Below, in pieces: positions 2,597 through 11,649 of a stretch of 64,000 nucleotides of DNA. The translations under genes were made by a program, and so were the position numbers. The stretch is from a bacterium (GTDB lineage Bacteria; Elusimicrobiota; JBDRMW01; JBDROU01). Numbering within the stretch: the first letter of the stretch is position 1; each line of letters opens with the position of its first letter. The notes below the pieces were generated by a model. The model was given only the letters and a program-made list of their open reading frames with translations, did not search any database and had not been told where the DNA came from. The stretch covers positions 98,218 to 162,217 of the forward strand of contig JBDROU010000073.1 of the NCBI GenBank assembly GCA_043809745.1, read 5' to 3'.

Positions 2597-4840
2597 ATGT
2601 TTAACTCCTTGAGTTCAAGGTTTTGGTACATTAAGGGTAGATTCCTGATTGTTGCTGCAATCTCATTATTCACCATTAGTAGTATTTTCGGCATAACAAA
2701 ACTGGAGCAGTTAGGACAAGTAAGCTTTTATATGAAAAGCGGAAGGATATTGAAGAGTGAAGTTCTTAAAGAATTTCCGACCACTGTAAGGATACTCCAT
2801 AAAGGAGAGGAGATGGTCCTTAGAAAAGACTTGATTCAGTTTGCTTTGGATAGCAGTGGGACTGAAGTAGAAATTAAAGTAGAGGATGAATCGAAAGATG
2901 TTGAGGAACAAAAGCTTGAGGAAAAAAAAGAAGAACCGGTGATAAAAGATGAAAATATAATAGAGGAAATTGAGGAAACTGAGGAAACTGCAAAAGAGCT
3001 GCCGCCGGAGATTAAAGAATCCAAGCATCTTCCCGAACCTGTTAAGAAAATAGGACTAGAAGAAGACAAGATATTGCCTTTTGCAGCAGCAGAGGACGAG
3101 ATTGATTCTGAGAAAATTGAAGAAAATGTTTCTTCCCTGGTGAGTGAGCAGCTTGATGAAGCAGAGCCCGAGGATGATATCTTAGATGGTGTTGGGGGAG
3201 GGAGAAGAGTATTTATTCAGTTGAAGAACGGAAAGGTTTATGAAGGCAATATAGATAAGGAAAATAAAAAGTATTATTATCTTAGAGCCGGCGATAAGTT
3301 ACATAAACTTAATAAGAAGAATGTGGAGAATGTTGAAGAGATAGATCTCAAAGAAACTAAAGATAAGAAGGATAATAGGATTGATTTTTATTTAAAGAAT
3401 AAAACAATAGTTCAAGGTATTGTTGTTGAAGAAAAAGCTGCATCATTTATTGTTGAAAGTGAAGGTAAAAGACAGGAGCTTCAAAAAAAGGATATAACAT
3501 TTGCGTTGGATGAGAACGGGAAGGATTTTTCTGTAAATATAGACCTTGCCCTGCTTAAGAAGTTGGAAGAAGACGAGAAGCAAAAGAAAAAAGCAGCCGT
3601 TAAAAAAATCGAGGAAGAAAAGAAAAAAACGGCAATAGTAACAAAAGTAAAGAAAGCTAAGGAGAAAAAGCAATCTGAAAAGGAAAATTATTATTCCCAA
3701 GGCTTAAAACAATTCGAGGAAGGCAATTATAAGGCAGCTATCCCGTTATTTGAAAGAGTCTTAATTGCTGACCCTAAATTGGGGGAAGCATATTATAGGC
3801 TTGCTTTTTCGTACTACCAAATTGGCGAAGAGGAATTGGCTTGGAAAAATATTGATAAAGCAAAGCAGTATGGAATAAGCCAGGCAGAAACGCTTCTTTC
3901 CATAATGAAGAAGGATAAGCAGAGAAGAGAAAAGCGAGCAAAGATAAAGAAGATATTGATATGGGGAGGTGTGGGATTAGGAGGCGCGCTGTTAGTTGGT
4001 TTTTTCTTGATGTTTGTCTTTAGAAGGAAAGATCAGGAGTTTGAAGCAACCTCATTTGAGAAGCCAGAATTTGCGTCTGCGGATTCTAAAGTTGAGGAAG
4101 AGCCGCCTCCAAAGATTGTATCATCATTCGAACAGTCGAAGCCTCCTGAATCAGCTTCATTTGCAATAGCGGATGAATCATCAGCAGCAGATATTGAGGC
4201 AAAAAAAACAGCAGAAGTAGAGTCAAGATATTCGTCAGTATTAGATGGAACTAATACTTCTGATAGTTTAATATTACCTAAATCTGAGAGCCCTGAGATG
4301 GTTTCGCCGGCAACGATTAATCAAAAACTTACGGAGGAGCCAAAATTAGAGGCTGTATCTCAAATAGATCAAACAAAGCTTTTACAGCAGGAATTATCTG
4401 AAACTAAAGAAATGCCTCTAACGAGTAATGATGCGGCAGGGATTATTCAGCAAGAAGATAAAAAAGAGATTCCTTCTTCAGGTTTTAATCCGGAAAAAGC
4501 TGAGAAAAATTATATAAAAGGTAATGACCTTTGCAATCAAGGAAATCTAATTGGAGCAAAGATAGAGTATGAAAACGCTATACGATTTAATCCGAGGCTG
4601 GACGTGGCATATATAGGATTAGGATACGTATATCTGTCCCAAGGCAAGATTAAAGAAGCTATACGTGAATATGTTAAATCCTTGGATATTAATCCGAATC
4701 AACCGGAAGCTCATTATAGTTTAGGCGTAGCATACTACAATAACGGAGATGTTAGTCAAGCAAGATACGAGTGGAAAAAAGCGCTGCTAATTGATCCAAA
4801 CTTTACTGATGCCAAGCGTTGTCTCGAAGAAGCAAAGTAA
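2597..4840 (+). CDS. Membrane-anchored TPR protein with three repeated small beta domains
   Basis: N-terminal signal/TM; three copies of FxLKxG..xGxI...E; TPR; one TM (ILIWGGVGLGGALLVGFFLMFVF); acidic linker; C-terminal TPRs. Confidence 0.7.
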   Translation: MFNSLSSRFWYIKGRFLIVAAISLFTISSIFGITKLEQLGQVSFYMKSGRILKSEVLKEFPTTVRILHKGEEMVLRKDLIQFALDSSGTEVEIKVEDESKDVEEQKLEEKKEEPVIKDENIIEEIEETEETAKELPPEIKESKHLPEPVKKIGLEEDKILPFAAAEDEIDSEKIEENVSSLVSEQLDEAEPEDDILDGVGGGRRVFIQLKNGKVYEGNIDKENKKYYYLRAGDKLHKLNKKNVENVEEIDLKETKDKKDNRIDFYLKNKTIVQGIVVEEKAASFIVESEGKRQELQKKDITFALDENGKDFSVNIDLALLKKLEEDEKQKKKAAVKKIEEEKKKTAIVTKVKKAKEKKQSEKENYYSQGLKQFEEGNYKAAIPLFERVLIADPKLGEAYYRLAFSYYQIGEEELAWKNIDKAKQYGISQAETLLSIMKKDKQRREKRAKIKKILIWGGVGLGGALLVGFFLMFVFRRKDQEFEATSFEKPEFASADSKVEEEPPPKIVSSFEQSKPPESASFAIADESSAADIEAKKTAEVESRYSSVLDGTNTSDSLILPKSESPEMVSPATINQKLTEEPKLEAVSQIDQTKLLQQELSETKEMPLTSNDAAGIIQQEDKKEIPSSGFNPEKAEKNYIKGNDLCNQGNLIGAKIEYENAIRFNPRLDVAYIGLGYVYLSQGKIKEAIREYVKSLDINPNQPEAHYSLGVAYYNNGDVSQARYEWKKALLIDPNFTDAKRCLEEAK

Positions 4841-6520: not shown

Positions 6521-8164
6521 ATGAAATATATAAAATTGACATTAATGGTATTATTGGCAACTTTTATTATAGGTGTTTTATATGCCGATAATGAGCCTAA
6601 GACATATTGGGATAGGATGATGCAAGAACAATCCTATATTCAGCAGCAGCGCGGGAATCGAGCGCTCTATTTCAGGGACTATGAGGCAGCGCTTAAGGAA
6701 TTTAAAAAAGCTGTGGAATCAAATTATAATGATTATAATGCCCATAGGATGCTCGGAATAACATATTATTGGACGGGACAGGTTGATAAAGCCATGGAAG
6801 AGTATAAAATTGCTCTTGAGATCAACCCTAAGGATGCCCAATCTCATATGGTGCTGGGGATCGCCTATGCGTGGGGAATGGATATGGATAAGGCAATAAC
6901 TGAATTTGAAAAGGTAATTAAATATGATCCGGCAAGATATGATGCGTACATGAATCTCGGATCAGCATTCCAAGCTAGAGGAGAATTAAGGAAGTCAATT
7001 TATTATTTTCAACAGGCTGTTAAATATGATAAACGCAATCCCGTTGCTCATTTTCAACTGGCAATAACTTACAAATTGCTTGAAAGATATACGGAAGCTA
7101 TTAGCGAGTTTAAGAAAGCCATCAAAATCTTTCCGGGATATGAGGATGCGTATTTAGAATTGGGGGGGATTGCTGAAAAAAATGATCTTGCTTCCGAAGC
7201 ATTGGGATATTATAAAGCGGCGGCTGACTTAAAGGATGGGGACGCTGTGGCTCAATTAAAAGTTGGACTTAGCTATTTAAAACTCAATAAAAGAATGAAG
7301 GCTATTAGAAGTTTTGCTAAGGCTTTGAGGTTAACCCCGTCCGGTGATCAAAAGAGATTAGCGCTGGATCTTGCATTCAGCGGAGATGATTCAGATTCGT
7401 CAAGAGGAAGAGAAGATCCGCTCGCTTCTTTTGAAGAGAATATTAAACAGGTCTCACCTGAAGAGGAAGCAGAGGTTAATTTCGAAATACGGTACAAAGA
7501 GGAATTGCCTTTATCATCAGTAGAAAAAATGGATGTTGTTTCTTATGGCAGCGGTAAAGGCATACGATATGTATTGCCGTTAATAGATGAAGATCCTCTG
7601 GAGCGGAAGAAAAAAATAGAGCAGTTTGTTGATAAAATAAGGCGTGATTTGGGAAGAATGCCAAAATCTTCTAAAATGGAAGTGGAGATGACAATAGATT
7701 ACAAGGATCGGGATAATAATTTAAGTCAAGCTTCAGGTTCAAGCAAAAATAAAAAATCAGATAAAAAGCGTCTTATGTACCAACCTAGGGTAGTAGGGAA
7801 TGATCTGGGATTGTGGGTTTTAGGTTCACATTGGTTGCTGTTAGTTCATGAGACAATTGATATGCTTTCAAAGAAATTAAATTCAAATAGCAGTTGGGAG
7901 GAACAACTCGGTTTGGCTATTGCCTATCTCCAAGCTGGTTTCGCATGGCAGGCTCTGGACATATTAAATATGTTAAAGTTGAGAATGCCGGAAGAGGTTA
8001 TTATAAATCAAGGATTAATCGTTGCATATGTAGAGTTAGGCGAATGGGATAGAGTAAATAAAGAATTAGATGAGATTCTGCAGTTAGAACCCAGAAATGA
8101 CTACGCCCAAGAAATCAAAAAATGGCTCGAAGATGAATCCGGGGCTAAAACCAACGAACGTTGA
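6521..8164 (+). CDS. Exported tetratricopeptide repeat protein
   Basis: Signal peptide from ATG 6521; about 7 consecutive TPRs; uncharacterised C-terminal region. Confidence 0.8.
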   Translation: MKYIKLTLMVLLATFIIGVLYADNEPKTYWDRMMQEQSYIQQQRGNRALYFRDYEAALKEFKKAVESNYNDYNAHRMLGITYYWTGQVDKAMEEYKIALEINPKDAQSHMVLGIAYAWGMDMDKAITEFEKVIKYDPARYDAYMNLGSAFQARGELRKSIYYFQQAVKYDKRNPVAHFQLAITYKLLERYTEAISEFKKAIKIFPGYEDAYLELGGIAEKNDLASEALGYYKAAADLKDGDAVAQLKVGLSYLKLNKRMKAIRSFAKALRLTPSGDQKRLALDLAFSGDDSDSSRGREDPLASFEENIKQVSPEEEAEVNFEIRYKEELPLSSVEKMDVVSYGSGKGIRYVLPLIDEDPLERKKKIEQFVDKIRRDLGRMPKSSKMEVEMTIDYKDRDNNLSQASGSSKNKKSDKKRLMYQPRVVGNDLGLWVLGSHWLLLVHETIDMLSKKLNSNSSWEEQLGLAIAYLQAGFAWQALDILNMLKLRMPEEVIINQGLIVAYVELGEWDRVNKELDEILQLEPRNDYAQEIKKWLEDESGAKTNER

Positions 8165-8239
8165 TTAATAGTAAAGCAGGTTCAATATGCGCTGCAGCTT
8201 GCCCAAGGCACAATACCGGCGAAAAAACCCGTAAGGAAG

Positions 8240-9253
8240 TCATGGGGTCTCAAGTATTGACAAGAATTTGCCAATTCTTTCAAATTTATTTCTAAAAGTT
8301 ACGTTCTCTTTAAACTTTTTCTGAATTCTTTTATGTACATAACCTACCCCGGAACCACTGATGTTACCAGTTTCTCTTCCAATATCAGTTAAACTTTTTA
8401 TATTGATGTTAGCTAAATATGCTAATTCTATCATAATATTCCGAGCCTCAATATATCTTGATTTTTTTCTTATTATCTCTCCCTTATCAATCCCAAATTC
8501 CTTGGATACCTCTTTTGCTATCTCATCTATTTCTATTCCGCCCTCTATCCCTTTAACATGCGGGTGAGATGCTAAATCCTTACCTTTTATATACTTTTCT
8601 TTTATCTCTTCAACAAACTTATCTGGCCCTATTACCAGCTGGTATTTTACCTCTTTCAATGGAGATTCCACTTCTCTATTCAATCCAGCTTCTACATACT
8701 CCTGATATTCCTTTCTTACTGGCTTACTATCTCCTCCCAATTGCTCAAGCACTTCTTCAACCTTGAAATGTGTAGATCTATAACTAGGTTCTATTATTCC
8801 AAGATAACTACTCCATATATAACTATTTAATATTTTTTCTTTTTCAACTTTGCTCTTTTTTTCTATGTTTTTAATTTTTATAGGATTTAAATGTATATAT
8901 CGACTCAATGCCAAATAATATTCGTCCGATCCCACTAGTATTGCTTTATACCTTCCCTGCATTAAAGGACCTACTCTGTTGTATTTATAGTTAAAATATT
9001 GAGTATATGTTCCATTTAAACGCTGCATGAACCGACTAAGATTTGCCTCTTCTGTACGCAATAAAAAATGGAAGTGATTGCTCATTAAACAATATGTTAT
9101 CACTTCCACCCTGAAATAATCAGCCCCATCCTTCAATAATTGTATAAAATACTGTCTGTCTTTGTCTTTATTAAATATGTTATTTCTATCTATTCCCCTA
9201 CTTGTTATATGGTAAACTGCTCCCGGGTATTCTATTCTTAATGGTCTGCTCAT
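8240..9253 (-). CDS. REP-associated/IS200-like HUH (Y1) tyrosine transposase with C-terminal HTH
   Basis: MSRPLRIEYPGAVYHITSRG start; HUH motif NHFHFLL; QGRYKAILV; catalytic Tyr in RYIHLNP; WSSY; C-terminal DnaA_C-like HTH (SLTDIGRETGNISGSGV). Confidence 0.93.
   Translation of the reverse strand: MSRPLRIEYPGAVYHITSRGIDRNNIFNKDKDRQYFIQLLKDGADYFRVEVITYCLMSNHFHFLLRTEEANLSRFMQRLNGTYTQYFNYKYNRVGPLMQGRYKAILVGSDEYYLALSRYIHLNPIKIKNIEKKSKVEKEKILNSYIWSSYLGIIEPSYRSTHFKVEEVLEQLGGDSKPVRKEYQEYVEAGLNREVESPLKEVKYQLVIGPDKFVEEIKEKYIKGKDLASHPHVKGIEGGIEIDEIAKEVSKEFGIDKGEIIRKKSRYIEARNIMIELAYLANINIKSLTDIGRETGNISGSGVGYVHKRIQKKFKENVTFRNKFERIGKFLSILETP
8246..8264. repeat. Left 19-bp inverted repeat (overlaps last codons of the transposase)
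   Basis: Perfect reverse complement of 9281-9299. Confidence 0.9.
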
Positions 9254-9259
9254 TCTGTG

Positions 9260-9288
9260 AGCTTATCATTTTTCTTTATGCTTGTCAA
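9260..9288 (-). promoter_or_regulatory. Sigma70-type promoter of the transposase, probably leaderless
   Basis: Minus strand: TTGACA (inside the IR), 17 nt ending TGA, TAAGCT, 6 nt, ATG; no SD sequence. Confidence 0.6.
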
Positions 9289-9299
9289 TACTTGAGACC
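9281..9299. repeat. Right 19-bp inverted repeat
   Basis: Perfect reverse complement of 8246-8264. Confidence 0.9.
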
Positions 9300-9348
9300 T
9301 GACCCTTTTACTTCTTTTACTTCTTTTACTTTTTTGACCCTTTTACTT
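9300..9348. repeat. Tandem 9-bp repeat CTTTTACTT with duplicated TGACCC end motif
   Basis: CTTTTACTT at 9305, 9314, 9323 and 9340; TGACCCTTTTACTT at 9300-9313 and 9335-9348. Confidence 0.9.
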
Positions 9349-9375
9349 TTTCCCCCTTCCTTTCTGTTAAAAATC

Positions 9376-9404
9376 TTGACATTTTGAGAGTTACCTGTTA
9401 TAAT
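9376..9404 (+). promoter_or_regulatory. Consensus sigma70 promoter of the abiE operon
   Basis: TTGACA (9376-9381), 17 nt with extended TG, TATAAT (9399-9404); downstream IR AAGTATA-N6-TATACTT (9415-9434). Confidence 0.8.
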
Positions 9405-9436
9405 CATTTCAGATAAGTATAATATAGTATACTTTT

Positions 9437-10039
9437 ATGAAACGATATATTAATCCTATTTCGGTGCAGGAACAGATAAAATCTAAAAATATTAGATTTT
9501 TTACTCCTGTTGAATTCCAAAGAATGTTCCACATTACTTCATCGAGGGCAAAATATTATCTTGAAACTTATACTCACATGGGACTCTTTGCCCGGTTGAA
9601 AAAAGGGCTTTATGTCATGAAAAATCAATTTCCAAGTGAAGAGGAAATTGCCTGTATGCTTTATAGACCCTCTTATATCTCTTTTGAATATGCTTTGGCC
9701 CGGCATGGGATAATTCCGGAAATGGTTTATTCCATAACCTCTGCGACTACAAAACCGACGCGAGAGTTTTTTACCTACAATAAGGAATTTGTCTATCTCT
9801 CAATTAAAAAATCTTCTTTTACAGGCTACTCTCTTTTAAAAGAGGGACCAAGTCATTATTTAATGGCTGATCCAGAGAAAGCTTTCATTGATCTGCTCTA
9901 TTTTGTTTCTTTAGGGAAAAGGACGATCGGGGACAGATTGAACACACACAATCTAAAAAAAGAAAAGGCATTTCAATACGCCAGACTCTACAAACGTCAA
10001 GGTTTAATCAAATTGGTAGAAAAATATGATCTCAAGTGA
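9437..10039 (+). CDS. abiEi: Type IV toxin-antitoxin antitoxin, AbiEi family
   Basis: N-terminal wHTH with RLKKGLY; PSYISFEYAL..HGIIPE..YSITS; A.PEKAFIDLLY; overlaps the abiEii start. Confidence 0.85.
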   Translation: MKRYINPISVQEQIKSKNIRFFTPVEFQRMFHITSSRAKYYLETYTHMGLFARLKKGLYVMKNQFPSEEEIACMLYRPSYISFEYALARHGIIPEMVYSITSATTKPTREFFTYNKEFVYLSIKKSSFTGYSLLKEGPSHYLMADPEKAFIDLLYFVSLGKRTIGDRLNTHNLKKEKAFQYARLYKRQGLIKLVEKYDLK

Positions 10040-10751
10040 AATAATTAAAGAATTAGCAGTTAAGCATCAAACGACAGAACTTAACGTTGTTCGAGAGTAC
10101 TTTCAGCATCTCTTTCTGTATTACTTTTATATCCAAAAACCATCCTCTAAAGTATTATTTAAGGGCGGTACCGCATTGAGAGTTATTTACGCTAGCCCGC
10201 GTTTTTCTGAAGACTTGGATTTTAGTACCGAAATAAAAAGCATCTCTACTTTAGAGGATCTGGTGCTGGAGGCACTTTCAGAAATGGAAAGGGAAGGATT
10301 ATCCGGGAAAATTAGAGAATCAAAAGCAACAAGCGGTGGATATTTGTCAATTATTTATTTTGAGTTTGGAAACAGGAAGATTACTATTCAAATTGAGGTT
10401 TCTCTCAGAAACAAGGGGATTAAGGGAGAAACGGTTACAATTGCGAGCGATTTCATCCCACCATATACTCTTGAGCAATTGCTCCAGGAGGATTTGGTGG
10501 ATGAAAAAATCAAAGCTCTTTTCTCAAGGCAAAAACCGAGAGATTTTTATGATCTTTATTTTATGCTGAGGGCTAACTTGATTCCAACGCAGAAAAAATC
10601 ACTTATGACAAAAACCCTTAAAATACTTCAGAATACAAAAATACCTTTTGCAAAAGAACTAAAAGTCTTTCTTCCTCAAAGCCACTGGGCAGTGATCAAA
10701 ACTTTCAAAGAATCACTTGAGAGGGAAATACATAGGAATTTCAGTTTTTAA
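10026..10751 (+). CDS. abiEii: Type IV toxin, AbiEii/AbiGii nucleotidyltransferase
   Basis: FKGGTALR, RFSEDLDF, EKIKAL..R.KPRDFYDL motifs. Confidence 0.92.
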   Translation: MISSEIIKELAVKHQTTELNVVREYFQHLFLYYFYIQKPSSKVLFKGGTALRVIYASPRFSEDLDFSTEIKSISTLEDLVLEALSEMEREGLSGKIRESKATSGGYLSIIYFEFGNRKITIQIEVSLRNKGIKGETVTIASDFIPPYTLEQLLQEDLVDEKIKALFSRQKPRDFYDLYFMLRANLIPTQKKSLMTKTLKILQNTKIPFAKELKVFLPQSHWAVIKTFKESLEREIHRNFSF

Positions 10752-10937: not shown

Positions 10938-10985
10938 TTATCAGCGTCCTTGGATGTTTATCAAAATAATGATATAATACCTCCT

Positions 10986-11333
10986 GTGAATATAGAAATT
11001 ATAAAAACAAAAATATCTAAACAAAAATTACATAAAATTGCCAAGAATAATTATGGGAATATGGTCAAAGGTGTTATCGATATCCATTTAAAGATAATAG
11101 CCCTTGGTGGAGAACTTCATGCAGATGCAGAAGCCATTTTACTTCAAAAAGGATCAAATCAACAAGATCTATGGGGTTTCAATATCTATATCGACAAACC
11201 GATTAGTAAGAGAATACAATACACATCCTTTATTAATATAAGACCCGCGCAAAATAATCGCTCTTTAGAGATTAAAAACGCAGAACTAAAAGCGAAAATT
11301 AAAAGAATAATTGATTCTTTAATTAGAAGCTAA
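10986..11333 (+). CDS. DUF5674 family protein
   Basis: MVKGVIDI...IALGGELHADAE..LL..GS.Q.DLWGFNIY...SFINIRP.QNNRS; probable leaderless GTG start 7 nt after TATAAT (10973-10978). Confidence 0.85.
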   Translation: MNIEIIKTKISKQKLHKIAKNNYGNMVKGVIDIHLKIIALGGELHADAEAILLQKGSNQQDLWGFNIYIDKPISKRIQYTSFINIRPAQNNRSLEIKNAELKAKIKRIIDSLIRS

Positions 11334-11334
11334 T

Positions 11335-11649
11335 ATGGATAAAAAAAGATGGTCTAAACTCTCCAAAGCCCAGCAATTGGGCAATATCGGTAGTGAAATT
11401 GCAAGGGCTAATTATTGGGAAATGCACGATGATGACAGAAATAGAGAAAAAGCTTTTGTGCGTTCTTTAGAACTGCTTGATCTAACATTAAGCGACCAAC
11501 GTTGGAAATCGGGCTTAAAAGAGATTGCTCGCTTTCGAGAAGTTGTAAGCGCCTTGTTTTGCAAACATGCATATTTTGATATTTCAACAAAAGAACTCGA
11601 AAATTATTGTATTGACTTTGTAATCAACTCAAAAAAATCAATAATATAA
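11335..11649 (+). CDS. Small helical hypothetical protein, partner of DUF5674
   Basis: RW..LS..QQLGNIGSEI.RA ... RSLELLDLT.....LKEIARFRE; starts 1 nt after the DUF5674 stop. Confidence 0.75.
   Translation: MDKKRWSKLSKAQQLGNIGSEIARANYWEMHDDDRNREKAFVRSLELLDLTLSDQRWKSGLKEIARFREVVSALFCKHAYFDISTKELENYCIDFVINSKKSII

What the first reader, a model, noticed from the sequence alone, without database searches (positions are those of the whole stretch)
8246..9305. HUH/Y1 transposase bracketed by a perfect 19-bp terminal inverted repeat
Seen: GGTCTCAAGTATTGACAAG and its exact reverse complement flank the gene tightly. One copy encodes the last residues (LSILET); the other lies 27 nt upstream of the ATG and continues TGACCC. 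The 3' copy reads GAGACCCCATGAC instead of GAGACCTGACCC. Known: IS200/IS605 elements use subterminal hairpins and lack TIRs, and canonical RAYTs are flanked by REP palindromes. Inference: the extra C-terminal HTH may bind these IRs as dsDNA, giving an HUH element with DDE-like end architecture. The altered 3' end may have immobilised this copy.
Basis: partly seen in the sequence, partly recalled or inferred. Interest (0 to 1): 0.7.

Follow-up and report, generated by a model that had tools for sequence, protein, structure and literature searches.

The report
TIRtron with one damaged end
This is an ordinary member of a named but apparently never bench-tested kind of bacterial mobile element: an intact predicted DNA cut-and-join enzyme gene between two mirror-image repeats, one of which likely lost five bases, and its relatives suggest that the enzyme likely cuts about eight bases outside each repeat and likely sits on its own promoter.

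Summary
A perfect 19-bp inverted repeat (8246-8264 / 9281-9299) brackets an intact 337-aa Y1-HUH gene with a DnaA-domain-IV-like tail. The design is not new: it is a TIRtron/TIRYT (PMC3733652; subclass 2.1.2 in PMC6006769), and the scan has 47 earlier findings with these words on other DNA. 86 of 109 homologues carry such repeats.

The 3' end likely lost 5 nt between two GGTC copies: the four closest proteins end SILET, this one SILETP. Whether that immobilises it is untested.

TIRs also flank HTH-less homologues, and TIR similarity tracks the catalytic core, not the HTH. There are no target-site duplications, so the likeness to DDE elements is only in outline.

New here, all inferred: 35 of 165 ends, this 5' end included, carry short tandem copies that start about 8 nt outside the GGGWC motif and end at variable places. 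This points to a fixed-distance nick with the enzyme bound to the element's 5' end. The inner 5' repeat holds the -35 box of a predicted leaderless transposase promoter. New member of a known kind.

The parts
8240..9253 (-). Intact 337-aa TIRYT gene (Y1 HUH core, linker, DnaA-domain-IV-like HTH)
   Evidence: ORF; Pfam Y1_Tnp E 4e-15 and Bac_DnaA_C E 4e-6 (27.2 bits, under the 31.5 cut-off); AF2 pLDDT 89.8; Foldseek 4er8, IS608/ISDra2 TnpA, 1j1v
9068..9076 (-). HUH motif H60-F61-H62
   Evidence: H60 and H62 invariant in 113 aligned homologues
8897..8899 (-). Y119, predicted catalytic tyrosine (RYIHLNP)
   Evidence: Invariant; catalytic role inferred from the RAYT motif (recalled)
8324..8530 (-). 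DnaA-domain-IV-like HTH (aa 242-310)
   Evidence: profile hits DnaA structures 8btg and 1j1v at E about 1e-8; Foldseek 1j1v TM(target) 0.87
9281..9305 (-). Intact 5' TIR: outer GGGTC motif (9305-9301), then an inner TCAA-N3-TTGA box ending in TTGACA
   Evidence: same-family ends
8237..8264 (+). 3' TIR inside the gene's last codons; likely lost 5 nt between two GGTC copies, so the outer motif lies 5 nt closer to the inner box
9260..9288 (-). Predicted leaderless sigma70-type promoter of the transposase: TTGACA (9288-9283, inside the TIR), 17 nt, TGn-TAAGCT (9265-9260), ATG 6 nt later
   Evidence: Sequence; conserved spacing in homologues. Not listed by the generic scan because the -10 matches only 3 of 6
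9305..9350 (-). Array of four 9-nt units outside the 5' TIR (9348-9340, 9331-9323, 9322-9314, 9313-9305), each starting 8 nt outside the GGGTC register; inferred nick-and-rejoin scars, predicted nick between 9314 and 9313

Best explanation
This is a TIRtron: an intact Y1-HUH gene with a DnaA-like tail between terminal inverted repeats, whose enzyme likely binds each repeat, likely nicks the inward-reading strand about 8 nt outside the GGGWC motif, and likely rejoins that 5' end to a new 3'-OH, while this copy's 3' end likely lost 5 nt and may be impaired. Shown here: the gene, the motifs, the repeats, the lack of end hairpins, the lack of target-site duplications across homologues, the fixed-start tandem scars and the conserved promoter spacing. 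Inferred: (a) The catalytic core reads the outer part of the repeat and the HTH adds contacts on about 8 further inner bases. (b) The nick leaves a 5'-phosphotyrosine on the element side. Extension of the free 3'-OH followed by re-ligation gives the short tandem copies; transfer to a distant 3'-OH moves an end, a MITE or, rarely, the whole element. (c) The two nicks lie on opposite strands, unlike IS608. (d) Binding over the -35 box represses the enzyme's own leaderless transcript. (e) The shortened 3' end puts the outer motif half a helical turn out of register, while the 5' end has been cut repeatedly, by this enzyme or by its 47%-identical paralogue on contig C37.
For: Family. TIRs in 86 of 109 homologues with flanks against 0 shuffled controls (this element included, 7 more left out for short flanks). 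Scars: 35 of 165 ends, against a mean of 0.97 with shuffled flanks and 1.6% at random positions; 23 of the 35 start at -7 to -9, and the ends range from -1 to +18. In a subset where starts of -2 were detectable, 18 of 165 ends scored; 11 start at -7 to -9, none at -2 to -4, and the null gives 0.74 per run, all at 0 to -4. Tyr-5'P/3'-OH chemistry for TnpAREP is from PMC8266576 passages. Positions -8 to -6 are not shared between an element's two ends, so the cut lies in flank DNA. Mobility of the class: two 1143-bp copies at 99.9% with different flanks in G281, and gene-less TIR pairs of 70-380 bp in this genome. Promoter: TTGAC 34-37 nt before the start codon in 31 of 86, and a -10 ending 5-7 nt before it in 39 of 86, against 2-5 at control offsets; promoter-like sites at 37 of 79 upstream ends against 3 of 79 downstream ends. 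Lesion: P0002-P0005 and L034 end SILET; 8 of 9 element-like same-family ends keep the spacer motif, and this 3' end is the exception.
Against: No biochemistry exists for any step in the papers I found. This copy is single in its genome and its protein cluster has one member. No empty site or sister copy was found. The HTH-TIR covariation test gave no HTH-specific signal. Near-identical ends within this genome show only a blurred outward boundary, with identity 0.35-0.85 at -1 to -10 in 20 non-independent pairs. The G281 duplicate shares 7 nt of flank at one end and none at the other, so the two ends are not simply both cut at -8. The 8-nt minimum length by itself favours starts near -5 to -8; only the subset is free of that bias. 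23 of 109 homologues lack paired TIRs. All homologues with flanks come from one phylum and are kin.
Confidence: 0.6

Rival explanations
1. One reading: the HTH alone reads the repeats as dsDNA and gives a DDE-like, two-ended cut-and-paste element.
For: The tail is DnaA-domain-IV-like. HTH-bearing members have longer TIRs, median 25 against 17 nt. There is no hairpin at the ends.
Against: HTH-less members also have TIRs with the same outer motif. No HTH-specific covariation. No target-site duplication in 80 elements.
Confidence: 0.15
2. The enzyme works on single-stranded DNA, as RAYTs and IS608 do, for example at the replication fork. It reads the linear TIR sequence on one strand at a time, and the HTH serves only for autorepression or fork targeting.
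For: The closest folds are ssDNA enzymes (4er8, IS608, ISDra2). PMC6006769 suggests that the DnaA-like domain may target the fork or may not read the target. The scar polarity fits this equally well.
Against: No guide hairpin. No clear fixed dinucleotide at the inferred cut. Both arms are conserved over about 25 bp.
Confidence: 0.3
3. This copy is a sedentary relic or a semi-domesticated gene that only maintains or spreads short TIR repeats in trans. The 9-nt array arose by ordinary slippage.
For: Single copy with one shortened end. Group 1 RAYTs duplicate rarely (6.2%, PMC5581495 passage). A catalytically dead clade exists in the phylum.
Against: The catalytic residues are intact. Arrays start at one register in many unrelated flanks, which slippage would not give. 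A gene-less TIR pair 3 mismatches from this TIR exists on C61. This rival and the best explanation overlap for this particular copy.
Confidence: 0.25
4. The 5-nt difference at the 3' end is an assembly error, or the junction of a truncated insertion, not a deletion.
For: No reads could be checked. Truncated end copies are common in this class.
Against: The bases outside the junction (TCATGGGG) match the outer ends of intact same-family elements in G001, and the loss lies between two GGTC copies.
Confidence: 0.1

Closest known systems
TIRtron / TIRYT (Di Nocera et al. 2013, PMC3733652; abstract, passages and section 16 read; Figure 9 and supplements not seen)
   Same: RAYT-like Y1 gene flanked by TIRs instead of REPs; outer motif near GGGGWSAS (7 of 8 at each end); TIR may overlap the 3' end of the gene; dispersed TIR repeats and dimers in the genome
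   Different: This copy's 3' TIR is 5 nt short. In what I read, the paper gives no cut site, promoter or mechanism.
TnpA-Y1 subclass 2.1, subgroup 2.1.2 (Quentin et al. 2018, PMC6006769; passages and section 11 read); RAYT group 1 of PMC5581495 (equated in bioRxiv 10.1101/2020.03.09.984088, passages)
   Same: Long protein, Bac_DnaA_C-like C-terminus, conserved serine after the catalytic Tyr, no REP hairpins; 20 of 26 TIRYTs fall in 2.1
   Different: No difference found. Their profiles were not available, so the placement rests on features.
E. coli TnpAREP / REPtron (PDB 4ER8; PMC8266576 passages)
   Same: HUH + single-Tyr fold (best Foldseek hit); single copy with dispersed non-autonomous repeats
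   Different: No GTAG-tagged hairpin; extra HTH; the inferred cut is set by distance rather than by a CT/CA dinucleotide; below the NCBIfam NF047646 cut-off (61 against 80 bits)
IS200/IS605 TnpA (IS608, ISDra2)
   Same: Y1_Tnp fold and presumed chemistry
   Different: No subterminal hairpins, no tnpB, a much longer protein, inverted ends
DDE insertion sequences
   Same: Terminal inverted repeats, MITE-like derivatives, promoter in the left end (general features recalled)
   Different: HUH rather than DDE catalytic core; no target-site duplications

Membership tests
TIRtron/TIRYT | RAYT-like Y1 transposase with HUH and catalytic Tyr | tested here: met
TIRtron/TIRYT | Gene flanked closely by TIRs, not REPs | tested here: met
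TIRtron/TIRYT | GGGGWSAS outer motif (in most members) | tested here: met
   5' end AGGGTCAG, 7 of 8; shortened 3' end GGGGTCTC, 7 of 8; same-family ends match fully
Subclass 2.1.2 (Quentin 2018) | C-terminal Bac_DnaA_C or HTH domain | tested here: met
   Pfam E 4e-6 but under the cut-off; confirmed
Subclass 2.1.2 (Quentin 2018) | Conserved serine motif after the catalytic Tyr | tested here: met
   W147-S148-S149; S149 invariant. Equating it with the paper's serine is my inference.
Subclass 2.1.2 (Quentin 2018) | Placement by the authors' HMM profiles or tree | not tested
   Supplements not opened
REPtron (RAYT groups 2 and 3) | Flanking GTAG-tagged REP hairpins | tested here: not met
   Folding z-scores of -1.9 to +0.1; the TIRs form no stable stem
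IS200/IS605 | Subterminal hairpins and a short TnpA, with or without TnpB | tested here: not met
DDE insertion sequence | DDE catalytic fold and target-site duplication | tested here: not met
Active transposon | Further copies, an empty site or excision joints for this element | tested here: inconclusive
   Single copy; no close relative among the genomes searched; no runs listed
TIRtron/TIRYT | Protein binds and cuts its own TIR | not testable with these tools
   Needs EMSA and cleavage assays

The most novel reading that the evidence does not exclude
TIRtrons are a third mode of HUH transposition. The enzyme binds duplex inverted ends, measures about 8 nt outward, nicks opposite strands at the two ends, holds the element's 5' ends and joins them to free 3'-OH groups with no guide hairpin and no target duplication, and it represses its own leaderless promoter through the same repeat. 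This locus would be a natural test pair: one intact, repeatedly cut end and one end shifted by half a helical turn on the same element.
Probability: 0.4. Interest if true: 0.65.

Novelty: new member of a known kind. Interest (0 to 1): 0.3.

Why it matters
The element itself is ordinary: it has more than 6,000 homologues, several paralogues in this genome, and many earlier hits in this scan. Its value is as a substrate. PMC6006769 calls subclass 2.1 one of the largest Y1 groups (14.9% of strains), yet my six literature searches found no biochemical study of it. The scars give a base-level prediction of where and on which strand the enzyme cuts, and the promoter spacing predicts autorepression. 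The intact and shortened ends make a ready matched pair for testing both.

Tried and rejected
Sequencing runs: none was listed for 7400-10200, so excision, inversion, expression and the 3' junction could not be checked in reads.

Viral contigs gave 1 distant locus and 0 TIR matches. Plasmids gave 9 records and phages 1, all partial and under 40% identity; none was followed up.

Empty site: the nearest genome (G001, same order) has the upstream TPR gene followed by a different ATPase gene, with no element and no AbiE pair. It is too distant to define junctions. None of 9 other AbiEi loci had a transposase match nearby, so no link to AbiE was shown.

Rejected: REP or IS200 hairpin ends; target-site duplications; a chance repeat. 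The HTH-TIR covariation test used crude ungapped TIR identity and kin sequences; I read it as 'no support', not as disproof. The outward-identity profile of near-identical ends in this genome was too noisy to place the cut. No complex prediction was run. Supplements of PMC3733652 and PMC6006769 (TIR lists, alignments) were not opened and could hold end details that bear on novelty.

Full report
Observation. The 19-mer occurs twice in the window, at 8246-8264 (+) and 9281-9299 (-), and nowhere else within 3 mismatches; chance expectation is 0.01. It brackets a 337-aa ORF at 8240-9253 (-).

Protein. Pfam gives Y1_Tnp at aa 13-121 and Bac_DnaA_C at aa 242-310, the latter under its cut-off. NCBIfam's REP-transposase model scores 61 against a cut-off of 80. 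H60, H62, Y119 and S149 are invariant in 113 aligned homologues (113 of the 120 listed). The AlphaFold model (pLDDT 89.8) matches E. coli TnpAREP 4er8 best, then IS608 and ISDra2 TnpA, and DnaA domain IV 1j1v. A profile search of the PDB hit only DnaA chains, so no close relative has a solved structure there. The search scored 7,998 candidates and 6,037 passed E 1e-30.

What it is. PMC3733652 (abstract, passages, section 16) names RAYT-like genes flanked by TIRs 'TIRtrons/TIRYT', with a GGGGWSAS motif. PMC6006769 (passages, section 11) places 20 of 26 TIRYTs in subclass 2.1, all with an HTH or Bac_DnaA_C tail. This element meets every feature I could test. Only these two works hold the words TIRYT or TIRtron in the library. 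None of six searches (listings only, except the papers named) showed a biochemical study. The scan's index holds 47 earlier findings with my search words.

How general the ends are. I took homologue loci, a high-scoring part of the matches in one phylum. Of 116 distinct genes, 7 lacked enough flank. Of the other 109 (this one included), 86 have a flanking inverted repeat scoring 14 or more, against 0 shuffled controls. In 79 pairs, the two arms agree from about -4 to +25 relative to a G[GT]G[ATC]C anchor, and positions -8 to -6 fall to background. This genome holds five complete elements with paired TIRs (C73, C37, C5, C33, C68) and an HTH-less one (C40), each single copy with its own TIR. It also holds gene-less TIR pairs of 70-380 bp, many solo ends, and one 83-bp unit with two different TIR types. 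In G281, one 1143-bp element is present twice at 99.9% with different flanks, so whole elements do move at times.

The 3' lesion. The four closest proteins (56-63% identity) end LSILET and only this one of 120 ends ETP. A fragment in G001 with the same inner repeat also ends SILET. A pattern search of 401 genomes gave 10 hits. One has no outer motif and looks like chance; of the other 9, 8 keep G[GT]GTC[AT] directly outside the core, and this 3' end alone lacks it. The bases beyond the junction match the outer ends of intact kin, and the loss lies between two GGTC copies, so a 5-nt slippage deletion is the likely cause. A GGGGTC motif survives but sits half a helical turn closer to the inner box. 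That this impairs the end is inference; no reads were available.

Role of the HTH. Twelve short homologues (209-232 aa) have TIRs with the same outer motif, and none of the 11 scanned has an HTH in Pfam. Their TIRs are shorter: median 17 against 25 nt (n = 12 against 67; kin not independent). Across 68 long proteins, TIR similarity correlates with the core (rho 0.58 outer, 0.32 inner) more than with the HTH domain (0.36, 0.19), and the partial correlation for the HTH given the core is about 0. So the HTH is not what creates TIRs; it may read the extra inner bases. The test is crude. The ends form no hairpin, and 80 elements show no target-site duplication at boundaries 0 to -10.

Scars and the cut site. 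Outside the 5' TIR lie four copies of a 9-nt unit, each starting 8 nt outside the GGGTC register and ending at different places. 35 of 165 ends (7 of 172 had no anchor) carry such junction repeats, against a mean of 0.97 with shuffled flanks and 1.6% of random positions; 23 start at -7 to -9, while their ends range from -1 to +18. The detection rule biases starts toward -5 to -8, so I repeated the count on repeats that cover the whole motif. There, 18 of 165 ends scored, 11 start at -7 to -9 and none at -2 to -4; the null gives 0.74 per run, all at 0 to -4. A fixed outer start with a variable inner end is what HUH chemistry (Tyr-5'P and a free 3'-OH; PMC8266576 passages) would leave if the inward-reading strand is nicked near -8, the 3'-OH is extended, and the enzyme-bound 5' end is rejoined. 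No clear fixed dinucleotide marks the site, unlike TnpAREP. Against a neat picture: the G281 duplicate carries 7 nt of flank at one end and none at the other, and near-identical ends in this genome give a blurred boundary.

Promoter. The inner end of the 5' TIR is TTGACA, followed after 17 nt by TGn-TAAGCT and after 6 more by the ATG. The generic scan did not list it. In homologues, TTGAC lies 34-37 nt before the start codon in 31 of 86 (exactly 35 nt in 23), and a -10-like hexamer ends 5-7 nt before it in 39 of 86, against 2-5 at four control offsets. Promoter-like sites occur at 37 of 79 upstream and 3 of 79 downstream ends. This predicts a leaderless transcript whose -35 box would be covered by bound transposase. 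Autorepression is inferred.

Context. The element lies between a TPR gene and a divergent AbiEi/AbiEii pair. In G001 the TPR orthologue has another neighbour, and 9 other AbiEi loci show no transposase, so the neighbourhood looks incidental.

Verdict. This is a real and ordinary TIRtron with intact catalytic residues, one repeatedly processed end and one shortened end: a new member of a known kind. Interest is 0.3. The class's mechanism is still open, and this locus gives exact predictions for it.

Noticed in passing
L078, L079, L089, L091, L095, L097, L100, L101, L102, L112, L129, L135, L136, L137, L139 (other genomes, same phylum): A clade of about 300-aa homologues lacks an intact HxH in 15 of 15 aligned. 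14 have no paired TIR, and L089 scored 15 on a repeat without the outer motif. Several precede a conserved gene with a signal-peptide-like start. This looks like a dead, host-kept derivative; the scan noted a similar case (e1-9559971).
   Followed up: partly
G000:C79:61549-61631 (L151): 83-bp gene-less unit with a C37-type TIR at one end and a C5-type TIR at the other; it suggests that ends of different elements can be joined or inserted beside each other.
   Followed up: partly
G000:C61:57458-57529, C42:150-283, C42:1477-1611, C42 near 4678-4808, C56:2042-2174, C46:17452-17607, C81:157525-157906: MITE-like TIR pairs of several families; the C61 one is 3 mismatches in 22 nt from this element's 5' TIR.
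   Followed up: partly
G000:C43 start, C61 end, C81:157906: Three 5' ends of one further TIRtron family (C43 and C61 each about 92% identical to C81), two at contig ends and all with outer tandem arrays; possibly a recently active multi-copy element that broke the assembly.
   Followed up: no
window 9376-10751: AbiEi/AbiEii type IV toxin-antitoxin pair with a 12/12 consensus promoter at 9376-9404, back to back with the transposase promoter. A 7-bp inverted repeat just before the AbiEi start may be its operator (seen in the sequence, untested).
   Followed up: partly
window 10950-11649: DUF5674 gene and a 104-aa gene with no Pfam, NCBIfam or PADLOC hit, following the AbiE pair.
   Followed up: no
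Homologue TIRs, e.g. L116, L122, L105, L117, L128: Many TIRs hold an internal direct repeat of about 7-9 nt, whereas this family has an internal TCAA-N3-TTGA palindrome; possibly two protein half-sites (seen, not quantified).
   Followed up: no
G000:C40:9336 and other short homologues: Several HTH-less members end in a basic GRP-type tail, reminiscent of an AT-hook (label recalled).
   Followed up: no
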